Shown: in pieces, positions 1 through 32,183 of the stretch | How positions within the stretch are numbered: position 1 is the stretch's first letter | Layout of the letters: every line of letters begins with the position of its first letter | Virus record (IMG/VR): IMGVR_UViG_3300032050_000023 | From: an uncultured virus (IMG/VR IMGVR_UViG_3300032050_000023) | Lineage: Duplodnaviria > Heunggongvirae > Uroviricota > Caudoviricetes | DNA: 64,000 nt | Reading direction: 5' to 3' (one strand) | Made by a program: the position numbers and the translations under genes | Notes under the pieces: generated by a model | The model's database searches: none | What the model saw: the letters and a program-made list of their open reading frames with translations, nothing else | What the model was told of the DNA's origin: nothing

Positions 1-736
1 CGTGTTCCCACAACTTATTTCGTATGTCATACATATCAGCAACTTCTCCCCATACATCAGTTTCATAGAATCCTTGACTATCAGAACCCTTTTCAACGTT
101 GTGGCTTCCGTAAACATACTCAAAGGCAACCCACTCATTACCAAAGAACTTTCTTACTTTATCCCAAAGAGATAGTTTTTTCTTTCTAACTATACCATAA
201 CGAGCATTTGTTCCGTGTATCTTACGGGTTATAACAACCTCATCTTCCTCATTGAACATATCAGGGACGTTCTTCATATTTGGAAACTTGTAATAGATAT
301 GAAAGTTTGGGTTTTGGTGGTATCTAACTTTCTTACCTCCACCCAAAGTTACCATTTTAACTGGTGGTTCATACTTAAATATCTTTAACACGTCCATCAT
401 GTCTTGACCTTCAACAAATCCACTTTGTGCGGTTACTGATTTGAAGACATACTTAAAAGGTATTAACAAGCATTCAGAGTAAACTTTACGAAGCTTTACG
501 GTTCTTACACGTTGTCCTTTTCGTAGGTAATTGGTAACACCCATATCATCAGAAAGTTCCTGTGGTATAACAGCATCAGTAGTTGCAACAACAACCAAAT
601 CACCTTCTTGGTATTCACCTTTTTTGGTTATGGCTTGCCACCCACCAACAAGTACAAGTTCTATATTATCAGCACCTGGTATCTCTACTACAGAACCTAT
701 TTTTCCTACATATGCTACGCTATTCTTATTTTCCAT
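1..736 (-). CDS. RNA ligase, Rnl2/DRB0094-like (partial, runs off left end; absent from ORF track)
   Basis: Manual translation from ATG at 736: MENKNSVAYVGKIGSVVEIPGADNIELVLVGGWQ...VRTVKLRKVYSECLLIP...ITRKIHGTNA; KxHGTN nucleotidyltransferase motif I and the typical N-terminal IPGAD.IE domain. Confidence 0.85.
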   Translation of the reverse strand, partial: MENKNSVAYVGKIGSVVEIPGADNIELVLVGGWQAITKKGEYQEGDLVVVATTDAVIPQELSDDMGVTNYLRKGQRVRTVKLRKVYSECLLIPFKYVFKSVTAQSGFVEGQDMMDVLKIFKYEPPVKMVTLGGGKKVRYHQNPNFHIYYKFPNMKNVPDMFNEEDEVVITRKIHGTNARYGIVRKKKLSLWDKVRKFFGNEWVAFEYVYGSHNVEKGSDSQGFYETDVWGEVADMYDIRNKLWEH

Positions 737-739
737 ATC

Positions 740-886
740 TTATTCTGATTTAGATTGTTTAATAAAAAATTCTATTATTTCTTTTAGTTCTTCACCAGTC
801 AGTACTTCTTGTACAACTTGACCTACTTTATCTATCTTTTCTCCGTAATATGAACTATATAATTGGCAAAATTCTTCGTCTGTCAT
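740..886 (-). CDS. small hypothetical protein (48 aa, not in ORF track)
   Basis: MTDEEFCQLYSSYYGEKIDKVGQVVQEVLTGEELKEIIEFFIKQSKSE*; fills the gap between co-oriented neighbours exactly. Confidence 0.6.
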   Translation of the reverse strand: MTDEEFCQLYSSYYGEKIDKVGQVVQEVLTGEELKEIIEFFIKQSKSE

Positions 887-887
887 C

Positions 888-1391
888 TTATTCTTCTCCT
901 TTCATTGATACAGGTGGGGTGAAATCCCACTTGGTATTTTCAAATTCTTCAATCCATTCATTAACATCTTCTCTTGTCCAATGTGGAGCAAAAGATGGTC
1001 GGTATTGAAATGGTACACTATCCTTATTTTCCCACTCATCAAGTCGTTGTGTTACATCTTCAATAAGATTTTTAGCCTTAGTGTGTTTAATCCACTCTCT
1101 ATAATCATCCTCAGATTTAATATACATAACATCACCATAATTATAAAACTCCATTTCAGGAAATTCTAAATTTGGGTTGTTAGTATAAACATCAACAATA
1201 CCATTATCTCCATTATATGAATCACAAAGTTCTCTTAATGAATGGAAACTTTTGGGTCTTTCTTCCCATACACTACCGAACTGACGAACAGAACAAATGT
1301 ATATATACCCATCATCATAAGAATGAATAAGTCCTTCAATTTTATTTCTTAAAGAAATAAGTTCGTCCATTGTAAGTTTAGTTAAGTCCAT
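888..1391 (-). CDS. hypothetical protein
   Basis: 167-aa ORF tightly packed in an operon. Confidence 0.7.
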   Translation of the reverse strand: MDLTKLTMDELISLRNKIEGLIHSYDDGYIYICSVRQFGSVWEERPKSFHSLRELCDSYNGDNGIVDVYTNNPNLEFPEMEFYNYGDVMYIKSEDDYREWIKHTKAKNLIEDVTQRLDEWENKDSVPFQYRPSFAPHWTREDVNEWIEEFENTKWDFTPPVSMKGEE

Positions 1392-1392
1392 A

Positions 1393-1815
1393 TTATATAC
1401 TTAAATGTTTTTTTGCGTTTTCTAAAAATTTCTCAATATTCTCTTTTCCCGCAGGATTTGCTGAATGAACCAAATACTTTGGTAATGATATGTTTTCATC
1501 CGCACAATATTCAACAAGGAACTTTGCACAATCAAGTCCAGTTTTTTCCATAGAACCAAATTTCATAACCATTTCATCTTCGGACATATTTTCATAATCT
1601 TCAGGTTTAAAGTCATAATGAAAATCAGCCAAGTCGTGGTCGAATGAAACAAACTCTGGAACACCATTAACCTCAATGTATTGAACAAACTCATCGTAGT
1701 TTTTTACAATATCCCAATCATTCTCCCAATAAAATTTATTGAATGAAGATGGTATTAATGTTATTGCGTCTTTTGGGATTCTTATGTCGTCCAAAAATAA
1801 TTTATTGTTTTTCAT
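1393..1815 (-). CDS. cyclic-phosphate-processing receiver-like domain protein
   Basis: Motifs LFLDDIR, VSFDHDL, TGLDCAKFL, VHSANPAG. Confidence 0.7.
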   Translation of the reverse strand: MKNNKLFLDDIRIPKDAITLIPSSFNKFYWENDWDIVKNYDEFVQYIEVNGVPEFVSFDHDLADFHYDFKPEDYENMSEDEMVMKFGSMEKTGLDCAKFLVEYCADENISLPKYLVHSANPAGKENIEKFLENAKKHLSI

Positions 1816-1819
1816 TTTA

Positions 1820-1827
1820 CAAAAGTA
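1820..1827 (-). promoter_or_regulatory. Bacteroidota-type -7 promoter box TACTTTTG
   Basis: Matches TAnnTTTG; lies 4 nt before the ATG at 1815. Confidence 0.6.
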
Positions 1828-1860
1828 ATCATTTTATATTTACCAAACAACATTTTGAAA

Positions 1861-1867
1861 TATTTAT
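1861..1867 (+). promoter_or_regulatory. putative phage late-promoter motif TATTTAT in front of the MNLQE array
   Basis: Same motif sits shortly upstream of many structural and leader-bearing genes in this window. Confidence 0.5.
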
Positions 1868-1873
1868 TTTAAT

Positions 1874-2167
1874 ATGAACCTACAAGAATCCATAAGAAGA
1901 ATATTAAGGGAAGAAAGTGAACTACCAATATACATTAGAAGAAGGGTAAGTATGGAAGATTTAGATGATTTAGTTTTTGATGTAAAAAGTTTAATTGATT
2001 CTGATTACCATAAAATTGATGCAATATACGATACCGTAAGACAATTTATTGCCTCTAAAAAATCATTCAAATTTAATAATGAAACAGAACAACAATATTG
2101 GGACTTTTATGTAAAAATTGAAAAACCTCTGGTTGATTTTGTTAAATCAAAATTAGATTATTTATGA
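1874..2167 (+). CDS. MNLQE-leader hypothetical protein (cassette 1)
   Basis: 97 aa, starts MNLQESIRRILREE. Confidence 0.75.
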   Translation: MNLQESIRRILREESELPIYIRRRVSMEDLDDLVFDVKSLIDSDYHKIDAIYDTVRQFIASKKSFKFNNETEQQYWDFYVKIEKPLVDFVKSKLDYL

Positions 2168-2649
2168 ACCTACAAGAAAACATAAGAAGAATATTAAACA
2201 GATTAAAACCATATCTTATTGAGGGTAAATATCTGTATCATTACACACCGACTTATAATTTGGACGACATTGAAGAAGAGGGATTGATTCCAAGAAAAAA
2301 CCCAAATTCTTTTTATAAAGATGGTATTGAAGGAATATTTTTAACAAATAAATCCAGTTTATATGGAGCAAACTTACCACAGGATTTAATGAATCTTATG
2401 GATGAATACTACGAAAATGGGGAAGAAGAAGAAAAACCAATCGTTAGGTTAACAATAGATATTACACAATTAAACCCAAATAAAATAACTTGGGACGATG
2501 ATTATATTATGAATCTATATAAATGGAATAAATTCAGAACGGATGAAGATAAAATAATAGAAAGTATTGATATCTGGGGAACTATCTCATATAAAGGACT
2601 AATACCGCCTAAATTTATAATAAATGAAGATTTTGATTATTTATCCTAA
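2164..2649 (+). CDS. MNLQE-leader protein with putative ADP-ribosyltransferase/Tpt1-like fold (cassette 2)
   Basis: LYHYTP..LDDIEEEGLIP...GIFLT...IVRLTID pattern typical of H-type ART-fold proteins. Confidence 0.55.
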   Translation: MNLQENIRRILNRLKPYLIEGKYLYHYTPTYNLDDIEEEGLIPRKNPNSFYKDGIEGIFLTNKSSLYGANLPQDLMNLMDEYYENGEEEEKPIVRLTIDITQLNPNKITWDDDYIMNLYKWNKFRTDEDKIIESIDIWGTISYKGLIPPKFIINEDFDYLS

Positions 2650-2650
2650 T

Positions 2651-3430
2651 ATGAACCTACAAGAAAACATATCAAGAATTAAACAAATGATGGGACTTCT
2701 TACTGAAGTTACAAACCCATACAAAGTTGAATGGGAATACCCAACAAAGGAATATTTTACACAAGAATTAAGTGAGTTATTGGGTAATCCTGGTAGATTT
2801 AACAGTAAAGAGTTCTTCAATCCAGATAATTACGATACCATATACAATATTATGCCAAACACATTTAAAACAATTGCCGAATTTGTTAAAGGTGAAGAAA
2901 TAGAAAGTGAAAGTGAAATTAAAGATATATTGTTAAACCAAAATGTTACGGAAACAATTGTTTCAGGTGAAGGTGAATGGGATATACTAAAAGGTATTTT
3001 AATGAATAACCAACAATGTATAGAAGAAGGGTATAAATTCTTCGGTCTTGGTGAAATGAAGGTATGGAAAGGAACAGATCCAGAAACAGGTGAATATGTT
3101 GACAATGTTAACAACACAGATTATATGGGGAAAATTACAGATTTTTTGTGGAGTAAATCACCAGAAAAAGGTGTATCGTCAAGAGTATCACAAAGACTAA
3201 AAGATTCAGGAGAAGAAGACCCAATGAGATTAGCGGGAAATATAGAACAATATAGAGAATACGCAAAAAGGGGTGAAGAAAGAAAACTACCAGCAGCATT
3301 TGTTGTAAAATACTTCACACAAAAAGACGGTAATGACTATGTTTTAATAGGTGGATTTAAAAGAACATCAACGGCATTACAGATGGGAATAGAACCAATA
3401 AAAGTTTGGTATATAGATATAACAAAATGA
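2651..3430 (+). CDS. MNLQE-leader protein with C-terminal ParB/Srx-like domain (cassette 3)
   Basis: Start re-set to repeat ATG 2651; C-terminus LPAAFVV...YVLIGGFKRTSTALQMGIEPIKVWYID resembles the ParB N-domain GxxR motif. Confidence 0.5.
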   Translation: MNLQENISRIKQMMGLLTEVTNPYKVEWEYPTKEYFTQELSELLGNPGRFNSKEFFNPDNYDTIYNIMPNTFKTIAEFVKGEEIESESEIKDILLNQNVTETIVSGEGEWDILKGILMNNQQCIEEGYKFFGLGEMKVWKGTDPETGEYVDNVNNTDYMGKITDFLWSKSPEKGVSSRVSQRLKDSGEEDPMRLAGNIEQYREYAKRGEERKLPAAFVVKYFTQKDGNDYVLIGGFKRTSTALQMGIEPIKVWYIDITK

Positions 3431-3810
3431 ACCTACAAGAAGAACTTAACGAAATATTAGAGTATCAAATTGAGACAATAATAAGGAGAGATACAACATA
3501 CGAATTTGAAATAATTGACTCTCCTTTGATTACAATTGATGGGAAACAGTTTATTACAAGAACAAATACGGTATATAAAATTATAGAACACCAGTTGACT
3601 TCAAAATTTAATTCTATAAGAAAAGAACTTATTAACCAAGATGATTTTCAATACGAAATGGTAGATACTGTGTTAACGGCAATGGAATTTATTTTATCGT
3701 TCTTGGAAGAACATAAAGGAAAAAGAATATTTATTATGGGTGAATCATTTTATTCTGGTCAGACCACTGAAAGAATGAGAGGTAAACAAATTAGAAATAT
3801 AGTAATATGA
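3427..3810 (+). CDS. MNLQE-leader hypothetical protein (cassette 4)
   Basis: Start re-set to repeat ATG 3427 (ATGA overlap with previous stop). Confidence 0.7.
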   Translation: MNLQEELNEILEYQIETIIRRDTTYEFEIIDSPLITIDGKQFITRTNTVYKIIEHQLTSKFNSIRKELINQDDFQYEMVDTVLTAMEFILSFLEEHKGKRIFIMGESFYSGQTTERMRGKQIRNIVI

Positions 3811-3828
3811 ACCTACAAGAATCCCAAT

Positions 3829-4155
3829 TCATTCAGTTTCATATAATCCGTCCTTTTCGTCGTCTTTCATCATTTTAACTATACTATCTTCTCTTACGTA
3901 TTTCCTAATCAATTTGAAGATTTCTGTTATGTCCGTGAAGTTAGATACAGGACTATCGTTTCTTCCTGGTAAGAACATAATGGTAAACCCATGATTTGCT
4001 TGGAAAGTTTCCTTAACTTTTATACCACAGATTTTATCAAGGTAAATCCAAGGAAAGTTCCCCGATAATTTAACATCAATACCAATCTTATTTAATCTAT
4101 TAACAAATACCTTCAACTTGTCGGTACTTAACTCTGTATTATTTCTTGTTTCCAT
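3829..4155 (-). CDS. hypothetical protein
   Basis: 108-aa ORF. Confidence 0.65.
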   Translation of the reverse strand: METRNNTELSTDKLKVFVNRLNKIGIDVKLSGNFPWIYLDKICGIKVKETFQANHGFTIMFLPGRNDSPVSNFTDITEIFKLIRKYVREDSIVKMMKDDEKDGLYETE

Positions 4156-4159
4156 AACA

Positions 4160-4363
4160 TTAATATTTTTTAATCACATTACCTCTTAAATAGATGTTAT
4201 CAAATGACACACCATTTACAGATTCAACACCGAGATGAACTTGTCTACCTTCAATTTTGGTAATCACACCAGAATCTTCTACAGAACCTGTAATTCTATT
4301 AACCACCTTAACATAGTCACCCACTTTGATGACCGCTCCGTTTTTATCTGTCGTTTTTTCCAT
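4160..4363 (-). CDS. small hypothetical protein, possible SH3/KOW-like beta fold
   Basis: Start re-set to MEKTTDKNGAVIKVGDYVKV; TATCTTTG box at 4368-4375 just upstream. Confidence 0.6.
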   Translation of the reverse strand: MEKTTDKNGAVIKVGDYVKVVNRITGSVEDSGVITKIEGRQVHLGVESVNGVSFDNIYLRGNVIKKY

Positions 4364-4379
4364 ATCACAAAGATATAAA

Positions 4380-4595
4380 TTATTTTCTAATATCGGGGAA
4401 ACTTTTTCCGTATTCCCACTCCTTACCGTCCTGATAACCGAGTTCATAAACTTCTTTTCGTTGTTCTTGTTCCATCAATAGATGTTCCTCAACGATGTTT
4501 TGAATCATTGTGTCACTTACCTTTGTTCTATCAATAAATGGTAGTAGTTTTTCAATTAAACTATCAACCGATGTTTGTTTCTTTTCTACTTCCAT
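4380..4595 (-). CDS. hypothetical protein
   Basis: MEVEKKQTSVD..., co-oriented and overlapping its neighbour. Confidence 0.55.
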   Translation of the reverse strand: MEVEKKQTSVDSLIEKLLPFIDRTKVSDTMIQNIVEEHLLMEQEQRKEVYELGYQDGKEWEYGKSFPDIRK

Positions 4596-4752
4596 AACAT
4601 TCAAGTTTTTTATCCGTTACATTCCATAAATCTTTAACACCTTCTGTCATATGACAATTGTGTTTCTTTCCCGTTCTTTTTCCGAACTCCACAATCATAT
4701 CATTATGACGATTACGTATAAGATGTGGACATTCTTTACAGGGTTTTTTCAT
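4564..4752 (-). CDS. small Cys/His-rich (putative zinc-binding) protein
   Basis: Start re-set to MKKPCKECPH...HNCH...C; promoter box 4757-4764. Confidence 0.6.
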   Translation of the reverse strand: MKKPCKECPHLIRNRHNDMIVEFGKRTGKKHNCHMTEGVKDLWNVTDKKLECYGSRKETNIG

Positions 4753-4756
4753 ACCA

Positions 4757-4787
4757 CAAAGATAAGAAATTATTTGACAAAAACAAA
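4757..4787 (-). promoter_or_regulatory. Bacteroidota-type promoter TTTG-N19-TATCTTTG
   Basis: caaagata 4757-4764 and caaa 4784-4787 on the + strand. Confidence 0.7.
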
Positions 4788-4823
4788 AAACCCCCAACAT
4801 TTCTGAAGGGGGTTAAATAGAAA

Positions 4824-5201
4824 TTATTTTCTTATTGGAACCGTGTCCACTGGTTCAAGTATCACTTTGGTGATTCCTTTTCTAATAAAGTTAAGTTCTT
4901 TTGCAGTCCCATAACTTAAGTCAATCACGAACTTTGAGGATTTTGGTAACCTGTCGTTGATTTTTACGTATCTAACGGAGTCGTTACTTGTGTTTGTAAC
5001 TTTCACAATTGTTCCGAACTTGAAGTACTTGTGAGCTGCCGTTAAACTGTCTTTGTGGAATCTTTCTCCCGATGATGTCAATCTACCTGTCCAATGTTGT
5101 CCGTAGTAGGAGGCTGTGCCTGTGTAGATTTTTTCTGACGATTTAAATGATAAAAGTGTTAATAGTGTAATTGTTGTTAATAAATAATTTTTAAACTTCA
5201 T
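4824..5201 (-). CDS. rlpA: RlpA-like (DPBB) lytic transglycosylase family protein with signal peptide
   Basis: GTASYYG...GRLTSSGERF...LTAAHK..FGTIVKVTN...VKINDR...IDLSYGTAKEL. Confidence 0.85.
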   Translation of the reverse strand: MKFKNYLLTTITLLTLLSFKSSEKIYTGTASYYGQHWTGRLTSSGERFHKDSLTAAHKYFKFGTIVKVTNTSNDSVRYVKINDRLPKSSKFVIDLSYGTAKELNFIRKGITKVILEPVDTVPIRK

Positions 5202-5210
5202 AATTTAGAT

Positions 5211-6428
5211 TTAAAATTTATAGTATCGGTCAATTTTTCTCTTGCCGTACTTTTTTTCCATCATCTTTTGGTGTAAATCCCAATTGATGATTGATTCGTT
5301 TGTCTGCTCTTTGTCAGCCGCCATATCATATAATTTTCCAATTTTCTTAATCATCTTAGTAGCAATATAGTTAAATTTTTCACATTCGTCAACAAAAAAC
5401 TCAATTTCTCTGTCTCTATACTTAATTACGTAATTAAAAAACTTCTTTTTTACTTTCATTTTGTTTTCCAATTCAGGTGGCATCCCAAAAATTTGACCCA
5501 ATTGCATTAAAAAATCATCTCTACGATTTGTAATCATTCTATCAAAAATCTCTAATTTGGTGTTAACAAGGTTTACATAAACTAATTCCAATACTTCTGT
5601 AATCATTTCATCTTCAGACATATCTTCATAATCCACGTCAACATAATCTAAAAGATTTTTTACTCTGTCAATTTGTTCTTTCATACTTTGAATTAGATAC
5701 TCGTAACTAAAGTTTTTAATTTTCAATAACTCTTGATATACAATATCGTTTTCAATAAACTCTCTGAACTTGTCTTTTGTTGTGCCTCCCTGTCTCATCC
5801 TTGATGCTATTTCTGTGGGTCTCACAAGGTTTTCTACGTGCTGGACGTAATAACTATATCTCATAAACTGGTTAATCACTGGTATTCCAAAATTCATACC
5901 CCCGACGTAGGATTGGTATTCAGCGTCCCTTCCAATTAAATCTGTTCGTTTTTTTGTCTTATCGTATTTGTGTTTTAATTCGTGTGCTAATACCGATTCA
6001 CTGTGTATTTTGTCTTTGGTAAATACATTATATAAGTCAGTATATTCCCAATCTTCATTTGTAACAAAATTAATGCTTAGTTCTAACTTGTCATTTATCA
6101 ATTGTACTTTCATTAATATGTCATCATCAAATCCAAATCTGTTTGCAACTCCCATTGATGCTATCTCTGTTTCATCTTGTTCGTCCAACTCCTCTACATT
6201 GATATTGATTTCAACTTTATTAATCATTACGTTTCCGATTGGTAACTGTACATATTCATTAATTGTGTAAGAATTTTGTTTCTCTGTGATGTTTTTCAAA
6301 TAGTCGGCTACTAACTCATAAAGAGTATTTGCACTATCTAATATAAAATCAGGAACACCTAGTCTTTCTGACAACAATTTTTTAGTAATATTATTGAATT
6401 GTTTTTCAGTAATTATAATCTTTGACAT
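5211..6428 (-). CDS. leader-bearing protein with HExxH zincin-like motif
   Basis: VLAHELKH and a downstream E (RPTEIAS); N-terminus MSKIIITEKQFNNITKKLLSE. Confidence 0.5.
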   Translation of the reverse strand: MSKIIITEKQFNNITKKLLSERLGVPDFILDSANTLYELVADYLKNITEKQNSYTINEYVQLPIGNVMINKVEININVEELDEQDETEIASMGVANRFGFDDDILMKVQLINDKLELSINFVTNEDWEYTDLYNVFTKDKIHSESVLAHELKHKYDKTKKRTDLIGRDAEYQSYVGGMNFGIPVINQFMRYSYYVQHVENLVRPTEIASRMRQGGTTKDKFREFIENDIVYQELLKIKNFSYEYLIQSMKEQIDRVKNLLDYVDVDYEDMSEDEMITEVLELVYVNLVNTKLEIFDRMITNRRDDFLMQLGQIFGMPPELENKMKVKKKFFNYVIKYRDREIEFFVDECEKFNYIATKMIKKIGKLYDMAADKEQTNESIINWDLHQKMMEKKYGKRKIDRYYKF

Positions 6429-6455
6429 ATAAATAAATATAACAAGTTGTGGGTT

Positions 6456-7109
6456 TTACCCCACAACTCCTAACATCCCATCTAAATGATGGTCATCATT
6501 TACCTCAGAACCAATCTCACGTTTGTTCATAATTCGGATTATATCATCAATAAGGTAAGGTCTCAAATCGTTTCCTTCAACCCCCACATCCATCTTTTTT
6601 CCGTTTCCAAATTTGTTCTTTGGATTCAAATGAACGTGTCCGTGAAGATGGATTACACCTTTACTTAATCCGTGCCAACTTTGAAGGGGGTAATGACATA
6701 AAACAAAGTATTCATCTTTGATTTTTACTTCCAAATATTGCTGAACACTCAAAAACCTATCTTGGATTCCTTCTCGGTTATACTTTATATGATGATCGTG
6801 ATTTCCCAAAACAAGGTGAATATTTTGACAAACAAGTCGGTTTAAGAATTTCTCAACGTTTTCAAATCCTCCGAAACTAAAATCACCCAAGTGTATCAAA
6901 GTATCATAATGTCCAACAACCGCATTAATGTTTCTAACAAGAGCTTCATTCATTTGTTCAATGGTGTCAAAATCACGGGTGGACTTTGTTGGAATCTCTC
7001 CTTCAGGTGTTCGCCAGTTCGTCACACCTCTCACAATATTTTTGTGGGAGTAATGCGTATCACTTGTAATGAATACATTTCCAGTCAAATCTAAATTATC
7101 AAATTTCAT
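6456..7109 (-). CDS. calcineurin-like metallophosphoesterase
   Basis: SDTH, HLGD, GNHD, LCHYP, HLHGHVH motifs. Confidence 0.9.
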   Translation of the reverse strand: MKFDNLDLTGNVFITSDTHYSHKNIVRGVTNWRTPEGEIPTKSTRDFDTIEQMNEALVRNINAVVGHYDTLIHLGDFSFGGFENVEKFLNRLVCQNIHLVLGNHDHHIKYNREGIQDRFLSVQQYLEVKIKDEYFVLCHYPLQSWHGLSKGVIHLHGHVHLNPKNKFGNGKKMDVGVEGNDLRPYLIDDIIRIMNKREIGSEVNDDHHLDGMLGVVG

Positions 7110-7495
7110 AGTCGTATTTCAAATCGGTTTTTCATTTGTTCAATCTTTTCTTCAGGCACATTGTGTTGATTCACACCTCCATGTCGGTTCTCAACAATAA
7201 CTGAGAATACCATATATCCATACTTTTCTGCAAGTTCAAAATACGGTTTCATTTCCCACTCTTGTGTGAATGTGTTTGAAACTGCTATTTTTTGTATGTT
7301 TGATTCCATCGCATGTCCAACAAACTCTTGACATTCTTTATGTGCTTCTTTTATTTCTGAAGGAATGAAATTATAATTCCCATCATTATCGTAGAAGTAA
7401 TGGTCAGCTTCAAAGACATTTGATGTTAATGTTTTTGCGAACGTTGATTTACCTGAACCTGGAATTCCCCTTACAATATATAATACTTTTTCCAT
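7106..7495 (-). CDS. P-loop kinase, AAA_33/polynucleotide-kinase-like
   Basis: Start re-set to MEKVLYIVRGIPGSGKSTFA; EADHYF, VSNTF, HNVP; TATCTTTG box 7500-7507. Confidence 0.8.
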   Translation of the reverse strand: MEKVLYIVRGIPGSGKSTFAKTLTSNVFEADHYFYDNDGNYNFIPSEIKEAHKECQEFVGHAMESNIQKIAVSNTFTQEWEMKPYFELAEKYGYMVFSVIVENRHGGVNQHNVPEEKIEQMKNRFEIRL

Positions 7496-7527
7496 GTCAC
7501 AAAGATAATAAAATAATTCTAATAAAC

Positions 7528-7563
7528 AAAAAAAAAAAGAACCCACTACAGGTTCTTTTTTTT
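7528..7563. terminator. bidirectional intrinsic terminator
   Basis: A-tract GAACC-cactaca-GGTTC T-tract. Confidence 0.7.
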
Positions 7564-7621
7564 GGGTCGTCCATTAACGGATCGTCTTCCACCACCTTGT
7601 TTTTCTAAACAAGGAAACACT
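7560..7621 (-). ncRNA. structured 3'-UTR/ncRNA candidate (element 1)
   Basis: GC-elevated intergenic stretch with hairpins CCTTGTTT/AAACAAGG and TCCG-TTAA-TGGA, bounded by AGTGTTTC and CGACCCAAAA. Confidence 0.4.
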
Positions 7622-7895
7622 ATCTCGTCACTAGCGCTTCTATCTTACTTTTAACTTGTTCAGTTAAATTCAGTTCTTTTGTGTTTGTAACTATTACAGA
7701 TGACTTTAAAATTTTGTTTGGGACATTGATAAAAAATGTATCCCCATTGTAAAATGTCAAATCCTCACCCAATTCAACACAACCATGAATCATCTTCAAA
7801 AACAATTTGAATTGTACTTCGTCCATAAATGTTTCGTTAAGTAATTCACCGAAACCTTCGTTTAAAATCCTGATGTTAAATACTGTCTTGTTCAT
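7620..7895 (-). CDS. hypothetical protein
   Basis: Start re-set to MNKTVFNIRIL; promoter TTTG-N20-TATATTTG at 7900-7931. Confidence 0.7.
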   Translation of the reverse strand: MNKTVFNIRILNEGFGELLNETFMDEVQFKLFLKMIHGCVELGEDLTFYNGDTFFINVPNKILKSSVIVTNTKELNLTEQVKSKIEALVTR

Positions 7896-7928
7896 GATAC
7901 AAATATAAACAGTTTTTTTATAAAAAAC

Positions 7929-8025
7929 AAAAACCCACAAAAAATTTTTTTAATTTGTGGGTTAAGTGTCGATAAACCATTACATTAACTGAAAGGGGTG
8001 TAATGTCGTTTTGTGTAAATAAATA
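7929..8025 (-). ncRNA. small RNA candidate (element 3): TATTTAT motif, hairpin, terminator
   Basis: TATTTAT 8019-8025, CATTACA/TGTAATG stem, then ACACTTAACCCACAAA..TTTGTGGGTTTT terminator; no ORF. Confidence 0.4.
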
Positions 8026-8051: not shown

Positions 8052-8471
8052 TTATAAATATTTTTTTACAATTTTTTTCATTTCTTCTGTTTTTTTTGTG
8101 AAAGGAACATCTTCTACATCAAAATATTGACACTCTTCATGTTCAAAACCATCTTTTGCCAATTTTAAATTTGGTAAAATAATTTTACTGGATTCATGTA
8201 AAAATATATACATCAATCCTCTTTTATTTGTTTTAGTTGTATTGTAAATATTTAATAAATCAACGAATTTTATATCCTTTTCTTTGATTTTTATACCTGT
8301 TTCTTCATAAAATTCTCGAACTGCCGCTTGTTTTGGTGTTTCATCACCTTCTATTTGACCTGAAGGAATTGACCATTCGTTAGGTAAGGTATTTGTTTTT
8401 GACCTTTTACAAAACAATCCTCTGTTTTTATATTTTACAAGTATTCCTGAATATTTTTTAAATTCACCCAT
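8052..8471 (-). CDS. NUDIX hydrolase
   Basis: Nudix box GQIEGDETPKQAAVREFYEETG. Confidence 0.9.
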   Translation of the reverse strand: MGEFKKYSGILVKYKNRGLFCKRSKTNTLPNEWSIPSGQIEGDETPKQAAVREFYEETGIKIKEKDIKFVDLLNIYNTTKTNKRGLMYIFLHESSKIILPNLKLAKDGFEHEECQYFDVEDVPFTKKTEEMKKIVKKYL

Positions 8472-8489
8472 TATTTAATATTTATAGTT

Positions 8490-8837
8490 ATGGAAGTTAT
8501 AGTAAATAATAATAAATATGATGTAAAGTGTGTTCTAACCCAAAAAGATATATCTAATGGTATGATGGGTAAGAAATTTGATAATAATTTTGACGGTATG
8601 TTTTTTATAATGGATGATGGTGAACACAACTTTTGGATGAAAAACTGTATCACACCTTTAGATATTATTTTTATAAACGATAATGTCATTACTAAAATTT
8701 TTGAAAACTGTGAACCGTGTAGAAGTGAGGAATGTAAAAGATATACCGCCAATGGTAATTATGTTTTAGAAATACCTGCTGGTGATTGTTCCAAATACAA
8801 AATAAAAGAAGGAGATACTGTAAATTTTACCCTTTGA
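8490..8837 (+). CDS. DUF192 family protein
   Basis: GMM..., GMFF, FWMKNCITPLDIIFI, YVLEIPAG. Confidence 0.85.
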   Translation: MEVIVNNNKYDVKCVLTQKDISNGMMGKKFDNNFDGMFFIMDDGEHNFWMKNCITPLDIIFINDNVITKIFENCEPCRSEECKRYTANGNYVLEIPAGDCSKYKIKEGDTVNFTL

Positions 8838-10194
8838 TTTTACTTTGTAATATTTCGTGAAATTTACTTTGTATTTCTTTTGTTAAATCCACATAAGATT
8901 TTCCACCCTTACCATTTCTATAAAGAAAACTTATACCAGAAATGTTTGTAATACATTTGTGACCTCCTGAATTAGCGTTAATAATATCCCTTCCATTTAA
9001 AGTAACTTTATCTAAAAGCGCTTTTTGTTTTTCTGAAAGAGTTTTAAAAGGTCTATTCATAATGTTATCCAATATTGGGAACAATGTTTTTCTGTTTGAC
9101 ATTACTTTTAATGAGGGACTTTCTCCATATATCGCCATAAAATCTTTAAATGTGAATCCAACTGACTGAAATACTGTTTTGGTTTCAGATATTCTTTTAA
9201 GTGTTGATAGAGGAACGATTATACTTTCTAGTTCCATGTTCATCTCGTCCAAAACTTCGTTTTTTATCTGACCTAAATCAACTCCTTTCAACGCTCTATC
9301 TTGTTTGAAGGGATTACAAGAAGCCTGAACTAAACCTAACGGCCATGCTATAATTAAAAAATCTGCGTTTGGGTTGTTTTTGAACGGTGTGTACCTATCG
9401 TAAGAACCTGACTTTACCATAGATCCTCCACCATATTGGATTATTATATTTCCGTCCACTTTTACATTTTCGGTATCACTCATTTTTTCTACGTATGATT
9501 TTTGATGTTCTTTCATTTTTAGAACATCGTCATACCCTTCTCGTTTCATTATTGATTTTATCTTAAGTAAGATATTCAAGAGGGATGGTTTACAGTCTAA
9601 AACAAGTTCTTCTAAAAATTTTGGTTTGTTTTTAAATGCTAATAACATTTTATTTGTTACCAAACCCAACATCATTTTGTTTCTACTAACATCAGAATTT
9701 CTATTCAACTTGAAAATATAACTCATAACATCATCGACACTGATGTTGTATTTTGCAAAATCGGCAGAGTCTACAGTTGAGATTAACGTTATATCACTTT
9801 GAGGAAAAATCTCTCTTGGGGAAATTGATTGAGATATTGTTTCAACGTTAGACCTTGAACTTTTAAATGATGTTGATGTACCAGCCTCAACACCAGCTTG
9901 TGTATCATGATGGTCTGTGTGTATAACAAACATTGGTTTACCATGCGCAAAGTCTACCAATACCGGCATCACATCTCCTCTAGCATCAGGTTTTTTTACC
10001 GCAAATTCTTTATCTCCATATTGGATTACTTCAGCATCAACAACATTGATACCATTATCTTCCAAATATTCTTTCATTGCAATTGCGGTGGTAACGCCAT
10101 CTAAATCTTGATGAAAATATATTTTTGCTTTGGGGTATCTTCTTGATAAATCATTAATACCTCTAATACCTGATTCTTTTATTAATTTTGCCAT
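8827..10194 (-). CDS. DHH-family phosphoesterase-like protein
   Basis: HQDLDG, LVDF, TDHH and C-terminal GGHK motifs. Confidence 0.75.
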   Translation of the reverse strand: MAKLIKESGIRGINDLSRRYPKAKIYFHQDLDGVTTAIAMKEYLEDNGINVVDAEVIQYGDKEFAVKKPDARGDVMPVLVDFAHGKPMFVIHTDHHDTQAGVEAGTSTSFKSSRSNVETISQSISPREIFPQSDITLISTVDSADFAKYNISVDDVMSYIFKLNRNSDVSRNKMMLGLVTNKMLLAFKNKPKFLEELVLDCKPSLLNILLKIKSIMKREGYDDVLKMKEHQKSYVEKMSDTENVKVDGNIIIQYGGGSMVKSGSYDRYTPFKNNPNADFLIIAWPLGLVQASCNPFKQDRALKGVDLGQIKNEVLDEMNMELESIIVPLSTLKRISETKTVFQSVGFTFKDFMAIYGESPSLKVMSNRKTLFPILDNIMNRPFKTLSEKQKALLDKVTLNGRDIINANSGGHKCITNISGISFLYRNGKGGKSYVDLTKEIQSKFHEILQSKIKG

Positions 10195-10223: not shown

Positions 10224-11072
10224 TTATACAATCTCATCCTTTATTTCTTGTAATGTCTTGAAGTAATCAACTCTTGTTTTTGCAACTTCTGTGTAATTTG
10301 GTGATAACTCAATTCCTAACCATCTTCTCCCTAATATTTCAGCAGCAACCAAAGTTGTTCCACTACCTGCAAATGGGTCTAATATTACATCGTTTTTGTA
10401 GGACAATATTTTAATTGCTTTCGTTGGGATGTCCATTGAAAACGTCGCCTTGGTGAGTGATTTAGTATCTGCAAAGTAATTCCACTGACCAAAAACAAGT
10501 TCCATAAACTCCTTCTTATCTTGTTCTTCATATACAACTTTCTTTTTTATGGTTCCATCCTCCTGTTCAATTTCAGTAGGTGTCCCTTTCCACTGAGGTT
10601 CTCCTTTAACCTTTTTAATGTGGTGTTTTTTGTATGCAAGTATTACACACTCCTTTGGATTATAAATATATGGTGAACTTGGACTCATCCAAGAACCCCA
10701 AGCAGTTGTCTTACTACGATGAGGTGATTGTTCCTCTAAATCAACAATACCGAAGAACCCAAAACCAATCTCTTTCATTATCTGCCACATCTCTGAAACA
10801 AAGAAAATTCTACCCCCCTTTTTTTGTCTGTTGATTTCATATGGAATATTTAGAGCAATCCTACCATCATCTTTTAATACACGATACACCTGTAATAACC
10901 AATCACGACTGAAAATTTTATAATCCTCAAATTCAACATCATCATCGTGAACATCATAATCAATTCCAACACCATAAGGACAACTAGTTACAACTAAATC
11001 CACACTACCTTCGGGTAATGTTTTCATTACCTCAATACAATCCCCATTTATAATTTTTCCTGTTTCTATCAT
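10224..11072 (-). CDS. DNA methyltransferase, N4-C/N6-A beta class
   Basis: GDC, VTSCPY (SPPY-like), LDPFAGSGTT. Confidence 0.9.
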   Translation of the reverse strand: MIETGKIINGDCIEVMKTLPEGSVDLVVTSCPYGVGIDYDVHDDDVEFEDYKIFSRDWLLQVYRVLKDDGRIALNIPYEINRQKKGGRIFFVSEMWQIMKEIGFGFFGIVDLEEQSPHRSKTTAWGSWMSPSSPYIYNPKECVILAYKKHHIKKVKGEPQWKGTPTEIEQEDGTIKKKVVYEEQDKKEFMELVFGQWNYFADTKSLTKATFSMDIPTKAIKILSYKNDVILDPFAGSGTTLVAAEILGRRWLGIELSPNYTEVAKTRVDYFKTLQEIKDEIV

Positions 11073-11081
11073 ACGTTAAGT

Positions 11082-11873
11082 TTAGTAATTTTTCCAAAGA
11101 GTTTCAACCTTTGTTTTCTTTTTGAATGCTCCGTCTACGGTTTTTACTTCAAAACTTATTTTTTCAAAACCATTTTCAGTTAATCTGTCGTACATTTCAC
11201 AATCATAACCACTGATTAATATTTTAGACTTTGATTTAATAACAACATCTAAAAACTTTTCGTGTTGCTCATCAATCATATCAACATTATATCTTGTATC
11301 TGTTCTTGTTGAATGAACGTATGGTGGGTCACAATAAATGAATATGTTTTCTTGATTGTATTTTTCTATTAGTCCAATACCATCTCTATTAAGAATAATA
11401 ACCTTTGATAGTCTTTGGTGGAGTTCGGGTAGTCTGTCTATTGCCGATAAGAAATCAGATGTAGACTTACTCATTTTTCTTCTAACAATGGTGTTGAGGG
11501 TAATCCCACCAATCCCATTTCTTGATGTTCTGTTCACATAAAAGAAATAAAATGCTCTATCAACAATTGATTGTTCTTCTTTTAGTTTTTCTTTAAATTC
11601 TTTTCTTAAATCCTCAGAGAAGTGAACCAAATCACACTTGAACTTGAATTCTTCAAATAATTCTTTATCTGACAATACTTTATACAACGAATAAACGTTT
11701 TGTTCTAAATCGTTATATATTTCAACTTCGGTTTCTGGTTTTTTTAACCCTATTGAAAATGAACCACCAAAAGGTTCAATGTATGTGTTAAACGTTCCTT
11801 GTTCAGGAAAATACTTGATGATATTATTAAACATTGTTCCTTTTCCTCCAAAATACTTTATTGGTGTGTTCAT
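11082..11873 (-). CDS. Dam-like (D12 class) adenine methyltransferase
   Basis: YFGGK, EPFGGS, YND, YCDPPY. Confidence 0.9.
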   Translation of the reverse strand: MNTPIKYFGGKGTMFNNIIKYFPEQGTFNTYIEPFGGSFSIGLKKPETEVEIYNDLEQNVYSLYKVLSDKELFEEFKFKCDLVHFSEDLRKEFKEKLKEEQSIVDRAFYFFYVNRTSRNGIGGITLNTIVRRKMSKSTSDFLSAIDRLPELHQRLSKVIILNRDGIGLIEKYNQENIFIYCDPPYVHSTRTDTRYNVDMIDEQHEKFLDVVIKSKSKILISGYDCEMYDRLTENGFEKISFEVKTVDGAFKKKTKVETLWKNY

Positions 11874-21873: not shown

Positions 21874-22713
21874 TTAGTAATTCATTATCAAAAGTTCTTC
21901 ACCCATGTTCTGTTTTGTACCTTTTTTTGCTGCTGCGGCTTTTGCGAATTCCTTTCTCTCCCATCTATATTTATCTTCAGGAAACCATTCGTGAAGTAAC
22001 TCAAAATCATAATATGATAGACTAAAATTACCTTTAACACCATGTAGAACATTTGCAAGTCTTTCGTGGTCTTGTCTATCAAAATCATGATTAGAATAGT
22101 AGTTTTCGGTTTTCCAATATGGGGGATCTAAATAAATGTATGTGGATTCTGAGTCGTACTTGTTAATTACGTCCGCAAAATCCATATTTTCGACATCTGT
22201 AATTTTCATGAAATGTTCAATCCAATCGGGTTTGGACAGTTTGTCCCTAAACGTAAGGTACTTTGATTTATATTTACCTTTTAAATCAATGAATGTACTT
22301 GTTTCTGGTTTTGACCCACTAAATACCTGTGTTAGAATGTACACATATTTTGCCGCAACCTCATAATCATAAGCGTCTACACTGAAACCCTCATTAAATA
22401 TTTCAGCTTGAAACCTTAAAAACTGTTCTTTGTATATTGATGGTGTGTTTTCGACACCCTGTTTTTGACAATCGATAGAATTAATTGCTTTTAATAATTC
22501 TGTTGGGTTCTGAACACATTTGAATAAATTGTAATTCAACGGGTTAAAGTCATTATAAACAACTTTTTTGAGATTTGGGTATTCTTTCAGGTTCATGTTG
22601 AAGAAACACCAATACATACCTCCAAATGTCTCAAGATATGTTTCCATATCCTTCGGGTAGTATGGAACTATCCATTTACCAATTTTAGATTTTCCTCCAA
22701 TGTAAGATAACAT
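21874..22713 (-). CDS. Dam-like (D12 class) adenine methyltransferase
   Basis: YIGGKS, ETFGG, YND, YLDPPY. Confidence 0.88.
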   Translation of the reverse strand: MLSYIGGKSKIGKWIVPYYPKDMETYLETFGGMYWCFFNMNLKEYPNLKKVVYNDFNPLNYNLFKCVQNPTELLKAINSIDCQKQGVENTPSIYKEQFLRFQAEIFNEGFSVDAYDYEVAAKYVYILTQVFSGSKPETSTFIDLKGKYKSKYLTFRDKLSKPDWIEHFMKITDVENMDFADVINKYDSESTYIYLDPPYWKTENYYSNHDFDRQDHERLANVLHGVKGNFSLSYYDFELLHEWFPEDKYRWERKEFAKAAAAKKGTKQNMGEELLIMNY

Positions 22714-22794: not shown

Positions 22795-22956
22795 ATGGAA
22801 CAGTTAGAACAAAAGAAAGAAGCAACTCAAGTTACTGGTTGTAGACAGTGTAATAAAGGACAGGAAAAACTTCAAACATTTTTAGTTGTTTTGGGTACAA
22901 TTATGTTTTTTTTAGCAATATATGGAGCAGTTAGATTAGTTCAAGATATTTTCTAA
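22795..22956 (+). CDS. small membrane protein with CxxC (53 aa, not in ORF track)
   Basis: [53 protein letters not shown]. Confidence 0.55.
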
Positions 22957-23876
22957 TCTCTATTATACTTTATATATTGATTTATAAGTAAGTCCCCAAT
23001 TACATTACTATACTTGAAACCTTTCCCTTTAACTCTAAGGGGTCTTGATGTATCAAAATTCTTTGGGAAATTAACAGATAATTCCCCATTTGGGTGTGGT
23101 ACACTAAAACTTTCTTTACTCAAATCTTCCAACGTGAAAAATTTATTATAAAGAAGGTGTTCCCCCATTTTACCAAATCCTTGAGTGGATTTTAATTCTA
23201 TTTTCATAGACAAATCACCATATTCCCCATTGTGAAAGTCTCCCATTGATTGTAACCTAACAATTTGACCATCTTCTACCCCATGAGGTATTCTTATTTC
23301 TAACGTTTTGAAGTCCTCTTTAGTTGATGCTCCATTACAAGTATGACAAGGATCTAATATTATTTCTCCCGAACCACCACACTGTTGACAAGTCATTGCC
23401 ACAGTTTGTACAAACATACCACTTCCTATTGTTTGTATTATTTGACCGTGTCCACCACATTGTTTACATACATTTTTTCTACCGCCAGTACCATTACAAG
23501 TGTCACACTTTTCTTTTCTTTTATATGTTAATTTTACTTTATTGTTCAAATATGAATCAACAATATCGACTTCAAACCTTATGACTTTGTTTGGTCTTTG
23601 ATTCCTCCCAAATTGATTACCAAACATACTGAACATATCATTAAAATTTGCAAACCTTGCATCTCCGAATGGATTTTTCCTTTCCATGTCGTATTGTCTT
23701 CTTTTGCTCTCATCACCTATGGCATCGTAGGCTACGGATATTTTTTTAAACGTGTCTTCATCTCCTCCTTTATCTGGATGATACTCTTTTGCTAATTTTC
23801 TATAAGCTTTCTTAATGTCCTCTTGAGATGCGTCCTCTGTAACGCCTAAAACACTATAATAATCTTCAGTATTCAT
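22953..23876 (-). CDS. dnaJ: DnaJ co-chaperone
   Basis: J-domain with HPD, four CxxCxGxG-type repeats, C-terminal domain. Confidence 0.92.
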
Positions 23877-32045: not shown

Positions 32046-32183
32046 CAAAAACCCCACCAAAAGATGGGGTTAAGTGTTTCATTGTACCATATAGATACAA
32101 TTGAGGTATTTCACCTTGAGAACCTCGTGCCTCATTCCGCCGAGTTATAAGGGTTATCTCGGTTCGACCCAAAACTATAAATA
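32046..32183 (-). ncRNA. structured RNA candidate downstream of the sigma gene (element 2)
   Basis: Stems CCGAG/CTCGG, TGAGG/CCTCA, ATTGTA/TACAAT followed by terminator AACCCCA../..TGGGGTTTTT. Confidence 0.5.

What the first reader, a model, noticed from the sequence alone, without database searches (positions are those of the whole stretch)
1870..3824. Start-codon-repeat gene cassette array: 4 unrelated genes, 5 identical ATGAACCTACAAGAA sites, last one empty
Seen: a plus-strand island in a minus-strand region where every gene begins with the same 15-mer (1874, 2164, 2651, 3427). A fifth copy at 3807 starts only a 23-codon stub that runs antisense into the convergent gene, giving n genes and n+1 repeats. 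The outer copies share 22 bp; copies 1 and 2 share 32 of 34 bp. At 2164, 3427 and 3807 the ATGA of the repeat is both the stop of the upstream gene and the next start. The repeat uses AAC and CTA, C-containing codons not expected to be favoured in such AT-rich DNA, so conservation looks DNA-level. Cargo is unrelated (ART-like, ParB-like, two unknowns). Inference: an integron-like accordion in which cassettes are gained, lost or reordered by recombination at the repeat, each inheriting promoter, translational coupling and an N-terminal leader. No integrase is seen in the window; SbcCD, RuvC and the PD-(D/E)XK nuclease are possible agents.
Basis: partly seen in the sequence, partly recalled or inferred. 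Interest (0 to 1): 0.9.

Follow-up and report, generated by a model that had tools for sequence, protein, structure and literature searches.

The report
Shared leader tag on swappable phage genes
Four unrelated genes in an uncultured giant lake phage start with the same short protein tag, and related phages have swapped the genes behind that tag, much as phage T4 does with the proteins it loads into its head.

Summary
Five exact ATGAACCTACAAGAA copies start four unrelated genes and one 23-codon stub.

The reading is only partly right. The 15-mer is the start of a longer N-terminal leader peptide. Type A is MNLQExIRRILREE (42 nt) and type B is MNLQExIxRIKxMMG plus [LIV]xE.

- **Where it occurs:** uncultured 200-300 kb T4-like phages. 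SprB repeats point to Bacteroidota hosts. At least 20 viral contigs hold 2-7 exact copies.
- **The peptide is selected:** pN/pS is 0.18, and synonymous variants are common.
- **The DNA is also unusually constant:** same-codon use is 0.76-0.84 in the leader against 0.57 in gene bodies.
- **Breaks fall at leaders:** homology with relatives ends at leader edges.
- **The island is an insertion:** it sits between two genes that adjoin in most relatives.
- **No integron parts:** no integrase and no attC-like hairpin.

Best explanation: recombination-shuffled cassettes carrying a leader tag. The tag probably loads proteins into the phage head and is then cut off, like T4's capsid targeting sequence. 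That function is inferred, not shown.

Earlier agents of this scan reported the same kind of system on other DNA.

The parts
1393..1815 (-). Left flank gene (cREC_REC domain, 140 aa); in most relatives it overlaps the right flank gene by 4 bp
   Evidence: Pfam PF20274 E 3.5e-21; adjacency in relatives
1816..1873 (.). 58-nt region between the divergent starts, with an ATATTTATT motif just before the first ATG (promoter role inferred)
   Evidence: Window 1809-1916 is 96.3% identical to L143 over 108 nt. A similar upstream stretch stands before the L151 cassette. The sigma-70 consensus scan found no enrichment
1874..1915 (+). Leader copy 1, full type A (MNLQESIRRILREE, 42 nt)
   Evidence: Many metagenome contigs diverge just before 1874 and just after 1915/1916. 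Homology with L143 ends at 1916
1874..2167 (+). Gene 1, 97 aa, cargo of the 'IRRRV' family of unknown function
   Evidence: no Pfam or PHROG hit. Body homologues carry type A, B or C leaders
2164..2196 (+). Leader copy 2, type A shortened by an 8-codon deletion (MNLQENIRRIL)
   Evidence: Alignment A1: relatives read MNLQENIRKILREEFNNLLNRLKPY
2164..2649 (+). Gene 2, 161 aa, ADP-ribosyltransferase-superfamily fold (Tpt1/KptA- and DarT-like)
   Evidence: AF2 mean pLDDT 84.9. Foldseek best hit KptA, E 1.8e-4, TM 0.39; then Tpt1, DarT1 and pertussis-like chains. 55 homologues, none named
2651..2707 (+). Leader copy 3, type B with its junction motif (MNLQENISRIKQMMGLLTE)
   Evidence: The AF2 model gives helix 3-15 and a low-confidence linker 15-20
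2651..3430 (+). Gene 3, 259 aa, with a weakly ParB/sulfiredoxin-like C-terminal domain
   Evidence: 105 homologues. Foldseek best E 0.64. VIA-align Z 5.5 to 3.1 for 22 ParB/Srx-type entries over residues ~134-259. An 86% identical copy lies in the main array of G008/G009
3427..3810 (+). Gene 4, 127 aa, unknown; only MNLQE plus a degenerate leader (ELNEILEY)
   Evidence: A 94.4% identical copy in G004 matches window 3411-3821
3807..3878 (+). Fifth copy: an 18-nt leader remnant (MNLQES, 3807-3824), then a 23-codon stub ORF antisense to the flank gene
   Evidence: Homology with G004 ends at 3821. Exact bridging contigs in X10 and X2
3829..4155 (-). Right flank gene (108 aa, phrog_38683)
   Evidence: PHROG E 5.9e-22; 106 relatives in viral contigs
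5211..6428 (-). 405-aa protein with a third leader type (type C-like, MSKIIITEKQF...) and an HELKH motif
   Evidence: Type C leaders elsewhere. No Pfam hit at E 0.001

Best explanation
The island 1816-3827 is a small secondary array of leader-tagged accessory gene cassettes in an uncultured T4-like giant phage of freshwater, probably Bacteroidota, hosts.

**The tag.** Each cassette starts with a short N-terminal leader peptide, predicted as a helix followed by a flexible linker. The leader ends in a [L/I/V]-x-Glu motif. It is most likely a head-loading tag cut off by the prohead protease, working like the T4 capsid targeting sequence.

**The swap point.** Because many unrelated genes share this leader DNA, the phage's own homologous-recombination machinery can exchange, add or delete the gene bodies between leaders. 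No integrase is needed.

**The window's array.** It was seeded at a junction between two genes that are adjacent in most relatives. Its last leader was truncated at that insertion end, leaving the empty fifth copy.

**Shown:** the repeat, its spread in many phages, selection on the peptide, extra constancy of the leader DNA, breakpoints at leader edges, and the insertion.

**Inferred:** head loading, cleavage, and the recombination pathway.
For: **Spread.** The exact 15-mer occurs 2-7 times per locus in at least 20 distinct viral contigs, always at ORF starts. In 5 records, 2 of them complete, all 29 MNLQE-coding sites lie in one array on one strand per record.

**Phage type.** Complete relatives G002 and G003 carry the T4 gp21-type prohead protease (PF03420) and gp23 capsid protein (PF07068). 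The window carries SprB repeats.

**Peptide selection.** In codons 2-5 of 147 leader genes there are 74 synonymous and 56 non-synonymous differences, pN/pS 0.18. Gene-3 homologues keep the leader down to 43% identity.

**Extra DNA constancy.** Same-codon use at identical residues is 0.568 in bodies (783/1378), 0.844 in leader codons 2-5 and 0.760 in codons 6-14. CTA is 7% of Leu codons in the window's long ORFs, but 25 of 36 in non-exact MNLQE copies.

**Modularity.** The same cargo families sit behind type A, B or C leaders, other leaders, or none.

**Breakpoints.**
- Cassette 3 matches G008/G009 over 2647-3444 at 86%, in their main array 32 kb from the flanks.
- Cassette 4 matches G004 over 3411-3821.
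- L143 shares 1809-1916 at 96% and then carries different cargo.

**Insertion.** The flank genes are 34 nt or less apart in 40 of 69 locus rows, and none of the 69 has a leader cassette between them.

**Cut-site motif.** [LIV]xE with its Glu at position 12-20 occurs in 109 of 140 MNLQE proteins, against 336 of 2079 body windows of equal size. It ends at position 17-20 in 43 of 50 type B leaders, a stretch not used to define that type.

**Cargo.** Type C leaders sit on three peptidoglycan hydrolases. G002 also has a leaderless amidase.

**Detached leader.** In the gene-3 model the leader is a low-confidence helix on a disordered linker.

**T4 precedent.** Diverse internal proteins share only a CTS (PMC3012670, passages). 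They bind the prohead core through it and lose it to gp21, which cuts after Glu (PMC5694885, passages).
Against: - No virion proteome or cleavage data exist for any of these phages.
- The leader has no sequence likeness to the T4 CTS as I recall it.
- Some cargo does not look like virion protein: three P-loop kinase-like proteins and a DUF2237 protein.
- Gene 2's leader has lost 8 codons including the LRE motif, and gene 4's leader is degenerate. A full leader is therefore not always kept.
- Leader codon identity is no higher within an array than between arrays for codons 2-5 (0.752 against 0.747) and only slightly higher for codons 6-14 (0.826 against 0.782). Local homogenisation is weak.
- No head module lies in this window, and the window's own genome is not held.
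- [LIV]xE is a common motif in Lys/Glu/Ile-rich proteins.
- Much of the sample was fetched with the exact 15-mer, which inflates identity in codons 2-5.
Confidence: 0.5

Rival explanations
1. The leader is a selected peptide with a function other than head loading. It could dock on a shared partner such as the phage's DnaJ-type chaperone, drive oligomerisation, set localisation, or control turnover. Cassette shuffling at its DNA would then be a by-product.
For: Peptide-level selection. Three interchangeable helical leader types. Kinase-like and DUF2237 cargo that would be expected in the cytoplasm. A full DnaJ homologue in the window.
Against: The [LIV]xE motif is enriched exactly at the leader/cargo junction. 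A T4-type protease and capsid are present in relatives. Peptidoglycan hydrolases among the cargo need delivery out of the cytoplasm. No partner has been identified.
Confidence: 0.25
2. One reading: the 15-mer is a DNA-level recombination site of an integron-like accordion. The encoded peptide would be incidental, and nucleases or recombinases such as SbcCD or RuvC would act at the site.
For: Rare codons are kept: CTA has a 7% baseline but is used in 25 of 36 non-exact copies. Leader codon identity is above body level. Breakpoints lie at the repeats. Stub copies recur. An SbcC/gp46-like 792-aa protein and a metallophosphatase lie in the window.
Against: pN/pS is 0.18, and 36 of 117 MNLQE genes carry synonymous variants. 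The conserved unit is a 14-19 residue peptide in three types, not one DNA site. PF00589 was absent in 4 of 4 relatives, 2 of them complete, while 14 of 14 control genomes rang. No hairpin lies at the cassette ends.
Confidence: 0.1
3. The conserved start is an mRNA element: a translation-initiation context or an operator for a phage translational regulator. ATGA overlaps would give translational coupling.
For: Synonymous sites near the start are more constant than in bodies. ATGA stop/start overlaps occur at 3 of 4 junctions. The cassettes have almost no spacers between them.
Against: Amino-acid identity is kept through synonymous changes. Conservation extends 14-19 codons with a helical residue pattern and a junction motif. 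Leader types differ in RNA sequence but share the peptide pattern. A search for RegA (PF01818) found nothing, but it also rang in no control genome, so it is uninformative.
Confidence: 0.08
4. The four genes are ordinary tandem paralogues of one family that kept only their N-terminus.
For: The shared N-terminus. Gene 1's cargo family is large.
Against: The bodies show no similarity to one another, and two have different predicted folds: ART-like and ParB/Srx-like. The same body occurs behind different leaders. Cassettes 3 and 4 have their closest copies in different phages with different neighbours.
Confidence: 0.03

Closest known systems
T4 capsid targeting sequence (CTS) and the variable internal-protein (ip) genes of T-even phages
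   Same: A short N-terminal leader is shared by otherwise unrelated, fast-changing accessory proteins. The leader ends at a Glu-type protease motif. The phage has a gp21-type prohead protease and a gp23-type capsid. An ADP-ribosyltransferase-fold protein is among the cargo, as with T4 Alt. Sources: PMC3012670 and PMC5694885, passages read. The T-even ip-locus polymorphism (Repoila 1994) is recalled, not seen.
   Different: There is no sequence likeness to the T4 leader (recalled). The leader is longer (14-19 residues) and comes in three interchangeable types. Arrays reach 9 genes, and about 25 leader genes occur in one complete relative. Cargo includes enzymes of up to 484 aa. The phages are uncultured Bacteroidota-type lake phages. 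Packaging and cleavage are untested.
PeSL (promoter-early stem-loop) mobile regulatory cassettes of T4-type phages
   Same: A repeated short sequence flanks accessory genes and serves as homology for insertion, deletion and replacement without an integrase. The authors themselves compare it with integrons (PMC2839356, passages read; PMC4122927, search listing only).
   Different: PeSLs are intergenic promoter-plus-terminator units. Here the repeat is the first 42-57 nt of the coding sequence, with no stem-loop. Mini-circles were shown for PeSLs; here they could not be shown from contigs.
Integron gene-cassette arrays
   Same: One-strand arrays of unrelated, tightly packed cassettes bounded by a repeated site, with content that varies among relatives.
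   Different: No IntI integrase. No attC hairpins. The repeat is translated and under peptide selection. Exchange is probably by general homologous recombination.
Polymorphic toxin loci with orphan modules (CDI, Rhs)
   Same: A conserved delivery part and variable cargo, with swapping by recombination in the conserved coding sequence that leaves truncated remnants (recalled concept, not tested).
   Different: Those are bacterial loci where the conserved part is a large N-terminal domain and the cargo comes with immunity genes. None of that is seen here.

Membership tests
Integron | IntI-type tyrosine recombinase next to the array | tested here: not met
   PF00589 was found in 0 of 4 relatives (2 complete) while 14 of 14 control genomes rang. 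No such domain is in the window ORFs scanned.
Integron | attC sites: imperfect inverted repeats at cassette 3' ends | tested here: not met
   All 15 inverted pairs in 1750-3950 have arms at least 167 nt apart, and none flanks a cassette border.
Integron | Promoterless cassettes read from a common upstream promoter | tested here: inconclusive
   Spacers are 0-1 nt and three junctions overlap as ATGA. A conserved upstream stretch precedes copy 1. The consensus promoter scan was not enriched: 14 found against 19.1 expected.
T4-type CTS-tagged internal proteins | Short N-terminal leader shared by unrelated small proteins | tested here: met
T4-type CTS-tagged internal proteins | Leader ends at the prohead protease motif (cut after Glu) | tested here: inconclusive
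   The motif is enriched at the junction: 109 of 140 proteins against 336 of 2079 body windows. Cleavage itself is not testable here. The exact T4 L/I-x-E consensus is recalled; 'cuts C-terminal to Glu' was read in PMC5694885.
T4-type CTS-tagged internal proteins | Genome encodes gp21-type protease and gp23-type capsid | tested here: inconclusive
   Met in complete relatives G002 and G003. The window's own genome is not held and the window shows no head module.
T4-type CTS-tagged internal proteins | Proteins present inside the virion, with the leader removed | not testable with these tools
   No cultured relative was found in the phage collection.
T4-type CTS-tagged internal proteins | Sequence homology of the leader to the T4 CTS | not tested
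   The T4 leader sequence is only recalled, so no comparison was run.
PeSL cassettes | Intergenic promoter plus terminator stem-loop as the repeated unit | tested here: not met
   The repeat is coding. No + strand terminator-like site lies in 1300-4500, and no local hairpins were found.
PeSL cassettes | Indels and replacements between relatives bounded by the repeat | tested here: met
PeSL cassettes | Excised mini-circles | tested here: inconclusive
   A contig joint 3802->2647 in X2 and X10 fits either a circle or another phage's gene order. Only short contigs were available.

The most novel reading that the evidence does not exclude
The leader is one element with two jobs. As peptide it loads proteins into the phage head and is then cut off. 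As DNA it is kept unusually constant across a lake-wide phage population because it is the landing pad for homologous recombination. Together this would be an integrase-free, integron-like exchange system for injected effector proteins that can also seed new arrays at fresh sites. If so, the injected protein set of uncultured giant phages could be read from sequence alone.
Probability: 0.35. Interest if true: 0.8.

Novelty: new variant of a known kind. Interest (0 to 1): 0.6.

Why it matters
If the tag does load proteins into the head, every gene behind it is a candidate injected protein: an anti-defence factor, a host-takeover enzyme or a cell-wall enzyme. Most of this cargo has no known family; 78 of the 88 leader proteins scanned had no Pfam hit. 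The tag would therefore mark a large, fast-turning pool of unknown effectors in abundant lake phages.

It would also show that the T4 internal-protein and PeSL style of gene shuffling works on a much larger scale in a distant phage lineage, with a translated sequence as the recombination handle.

Two full-text searches found no paper on these leaders. Motif strings gave 0 papers, and a topic search gave 6 papers, none on this.

Tried and rejected
- **Own genome.** It is not held. The nearest record, G001, has neither the 15-mer nor region 1-8000.
- **Cultured relatives.** Megablast and tblastn against GenBank phages found no close relative. Window 1-8000, gene 2 and gene 1 gave no match. The 792-aa protein gave only 5 distant records, all under 25% identity.
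- **Families for the four genes.** Pfam and PHROGs gave nothing for any of them.
- **Complex prediction.** The G002 scaffold-like protein with a leader N-terminus (residues 1-45) gave no verdict, score 0.00, and the controls were not run. This counts neither for nor against binding.
- **RegA.** The PF01818 search found nothing in G002 or G003, but it also rang in no control genome, so it is uninformative.
- **RecA.** PF00154 gave only below-cut-off matches, E about 1e-6, in 349-363 aa ORFs. These may be UvsX-like proteins; this was not pursued.
- **Excised circles.** Only short Logan contigs were available. The many joints at leader ends mostly reflect the repeat being shared by many genes and phages. 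The joint 3802->2647 is ambiguous.
- **Head-module neighbours.** Genes next to the protease in G002 and G003 carry no leader.
- **MCP propeptide.** The G002 capsid protein's N-terminus reads ...HLINE/ATSEG... at the place where I recall T4 gp23 being cut. This is recall only and not counted.
- **Within-array homogenisation.** The signal is weak, so the window's 5-of-5 identity is not special.
- **Tandem-paralogue reading.** Rejected, see the rival explanations.
Full report

Yes. ATGAACCTACAAGAA occurs five times exactly, all on the + strand, at 1874, 2164, 2651, 3427 and 3807. With up to two mismatches the window has 6 matches. The mean of 100 shuffles was 0.41, and none of them reached 6.

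The copies start ORFs of 97, 161, 259 and 127 aa. The fifth starts a 23-codon stub that runs antisense into the convergent gene 3829-4155. At 2164, 3427 and 3807 the TGA inside ATGA is the stop of the upstream gene.

The layout is not an assembly artefact. Contigs from coded runs of three separate studies match with no mismatch across gene1/leader2, gene2/leader3 and stub/flank.

**2. What is the repeat?**

The 15-mer is only the beginning of an N-terminal leader peptide.

- Copy 1 is a full 42-nt type A leader, MNLQESIRRILREE.
- Copy 2 is the same leader with an 8-codon deletion (alignment A1).
- Copy 3 is a second type, B: MNLQENISRIKQMMGLLTE.
- Copy 4 keeps MNLQE and a degenerate remainder.
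- Copy 5 keeps only MNLQES.

In lake metagenomes the depth summed over contigs spikes at the leaders. It is 2323 in the bin holding leader 1 against 33 in the next bin in run X1. Many contigs diverge just before 1874 and just after 1915/1916. The 42-nt unit is therefore shared by many genes.

A third leader type, C (MKIIITESQ... or MKKIIRLTESDL...), occurs on other genes. These include the window's 405-aa protein at 5211-6428.

**3. Where else does it occur?**

Single matches are about what chance gives in so large a collection (my estimate). However, at least 20 distinct contigs among the 80 listed rows hold 2-7 copies within a few kb, each at an ORF start.

In five records, two of them complete at 257 and 269 kb, all 29 MNLQE-coding sites lie in one array on one strand per record.

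The complete relatives G002 and G003 encode a T4 gp21-type prohead protease and a gp23-type capsid protein. The window carries SprB repeats and a DnaJ homologue. It is found in 20 runs of 15 studies, most of them labelled freshwater or lake metagenomes.

The lineage may be related to the 'moraphages' of PMC12619734 (passages read). I did not test this.

The complete relative G002 has 30% G+C and 337 ORFs. It has nine MNLQE-coded sites at 83.9-88.1 kb, and the motif screen flagged 27 leader-like ORFs (14 type A-like, 13 type C), some of them loose matches.

**4. Is the conservation in the peptide or in the DNA?**

Both, but the peptide comes first.

*Baseline.* Codon usage in the window's long ORFs gives a probability of 0.015 for the exact 15-mer, given the peptide MNLQE. 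AAC is 0.315 of Asn codons and CTA is 0.071 of Leu codons.

*Peptide selection.*
- Among 147 leader genes in all fetched loci, 117 encode MNLQE. Of these, 81 use the exact 15-mer and 36 use synonymous variants. The sample is biased towards the exact form, because many loci were fetched with it.
- In relative G009, which was reached through the flank genes, only 4 of 9 copies are exact.
- Differences from the consensus in codons 2-5 are 74 synonymous and 56 non-synonymous, giving pN/pS 0.18.
- Gene-3 homologues keep the type B leader down to 43% identity.

*Extra DNA constancy.*
- In homologous cargo pairs of 30-60% identity, identical residues use the same codon in 0.568 of body positions (783/1378).
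- The figure is 0.844 in leader codons 2-5 and 0.760 in codons 6-14. Codons 6-14 were not part of any search pattern.
- The rare CTA codon persists in 25 of 36 non-exact copies.

*Local homogenisation is weak.* Same-codon identity within arrays against between arrays is 0.752 against 0.747 for codons 2-5, and 0.826 against 0.782 for codons 6-14.

**5. Do cassettes change at the leaders?**

Yes.

- **G008/G009.** Their flanks are 74-89% identical to the window. They hold an 86% identical copy of cassette 3 that matches window 2647-3444, that is, from leader 3 through the start of leader 4. It sits in their main array, 32 kb from the flanks and in the opposite orientation, with other neighbours.
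- **G004.** Cassette 4 matches at 94.4% over 3411-3821, ending at the last base of the fifth 15-mer. In G004 a 12-codon stub follows, with a different continuation.
- **L143.** This relative shares window 1809-1916 at 96.3%. That stretch covers the 58-nt upstream region and the whole 42-nt leader. L143 then diverges at once into different cargo. It has two cassettes and no stub.
- **L151.** It has a single type B cassette at another intergenic site nearby, in the same antisense orientation, with a similar upstream stretch.

**6. The island is an insertion.**

The two flank genes are the cREC_REC gene at 1393-1815 and the phrog_38683 gene at 3829-4155. They are 34 nt or less apart in 40 of 69 locus rows, and in 21 of those rows they overlap by the 4-bp ATGA. 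Several contigs appear twice in these rows, because two searches fetched them.

The other rows hold different inserts, for example a GIY-YIG endonuclease-like gene in four rows. None of the 69 rows holds a leader cassette between the flank genes.

On the minus strand the 2-kb insert is bracketed by ATGAA on both sides. That may be microhomology or chance.

The empty fifth copy is best read as the leader of a further cassette, cut 18-21 nt in at the insertion end. Stub copies of 7-12 codons recur in at least 6 other contigs.

**7. What is the cargo?**

- **Gene 2** folds with mean pLDDT 84.9. It best matches KptA/Tpt1, DarT1 and pertussis-like chains, which share the ADP-ribosyltransferase fold. 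Foldseek E is 1.8e-4 with TM about 0.39, so the match is modest.
- **Gene 3** has no significant Foldseek match; the best E is 0.64. The 22 best VIA-align rows are all ParB/sulfiredoxin-type entries, with Z from 5.5 to 3.1, over residues ~134-259. This support is weak.
- **Genes 1 and 4** are unknown.
- **Wider set.** Of 88 leader proteins scanned, 10 had Pfam hits. Three type C proteins are peptidoglycan hydrolases. Three type B proteins are P-loop kinase-like. One is DUF2237, one is DUF6576, and one type A protein has a weak AAT hit.
- The window and G002 also have a leaderless amidase, a candidate endolysin.
- The same cargo families occur behind A, B, C or other leaders, or behind none.

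**8. How does it most likely work?**

*Shown:* a selected leader peptide on unrelated, fast-turning genes, and recombination breakpoints at its coding DNA.

*Inferred:* the leader works like the T4 capsid targeting sequence.

In T4, diverse internal proteins share only a CTS (PMC3012670, passages). They join the prohead core through it. They then lose it to gp21, which cuts after Glu, as related proteases do (PMC5694885, passages).

Here, [LIV]xE with its Glu at position 12-20 occurs in 109 of 140 MNLQE proteins, against 336 of 2079 equal-size body windows. It ends at position 17-20 in 43 of 50 type B leaders, a stretch not used to define that type. In the gene-3 model the leader is a low-confidence helix on a disordered linker.

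Points against:
- There are no particle data.
- The kinase-like cargo does not look like virion protein.
- Genes 2 and 4 carry decayed leaders.
- The motif is a common one.

No integrase and no attC-like hairpin is present. Exchange is most simply by the phage's general recombination system, as proposed for PeSL cassettes (PMC2839356, passages).

**9. Verdict.**

This is a new variant of a known kind: T4 internal-protein/CTS loci and PeSL-type shuffling. It is larger, it has a translated repeat in three interchangeable types, and it lies in a distant uncultured lineage.

Earlier agents of this scan reported the same kind of system, with the same reading, on other DNA. Those notes are not independent evidence.

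Noticed in passing
L148, L149, L152, L157 (between the flank-gene homologues): An 836-bp insert encoding a 249-aa GIY-YIG homing-endonuclease-like protein sits at the same gene junction that holds the window's array. The junction may be an endonuclease-driven hot spot.
   Followed up: partly
window 2-736, 1393-1815, 2164-2649, 6456-7109, 7106-7546, 8052-8471: The neighbourhood looks like an RNA-repair set: a protein with the PHA02142 OB-fold domain, a cREC_REC domain, a metallophosphatase, an AAA_33 kinase and a Nudix protein. The inserted gene 2 has a Tpt1/KptA-like fold, which fits this theme.
   Followed up: no
L143 reverse complement 8183-9168: Three tandem type C leader genes (MKK[IV]I[KR]LTESDLTRI...) lie between homologues of window genes 4564-4800 and 4824-5201, where the window has none. 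Type C cassettes therefore also come and go.
   Followed up: no
window 1856-1873 and upstream of many cassettes in L037, L041, L071, L258, L259: A motif like ATATTTATT lies 5-13 nt before the ATG of many first or free-standing cassettes. It may be a phage promoter that would give very short 5' leaders.
   Followed up: partly
G003:C1 31-35 kb and 233-237 kb: This 269-kb record has two copies of the gp21-protease/gp23-capsid module. This could be a real duplication or a redundancy of the assembly.
   Followed up: no
window 800-5200 in runs X1, X2, X10, X11: Contig joints 1390->1809 (X1, X2, X10) and 1396->3837 (X11) point to co-occurring variants. The first lacks the cREC gene; the second lacks both the cREC gene and the array.
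   Followed up: partly
window 22953-23876, 32175-32975, 10224-11873, 21874-22713, 37182-37847: The phage encodes a full DnaJ homologue, a sigma-70-type factor and four DNA methyltransferase genes. DnaJ recalls the 'moraphage' lineage of PMC12619734.
   Followed up: no
window 49649-50722 and 56044-59400: Large proteins with SprB repeats, possibly tail fibres or adhesins, point to a Bacteroidota host.
   Followed up: no
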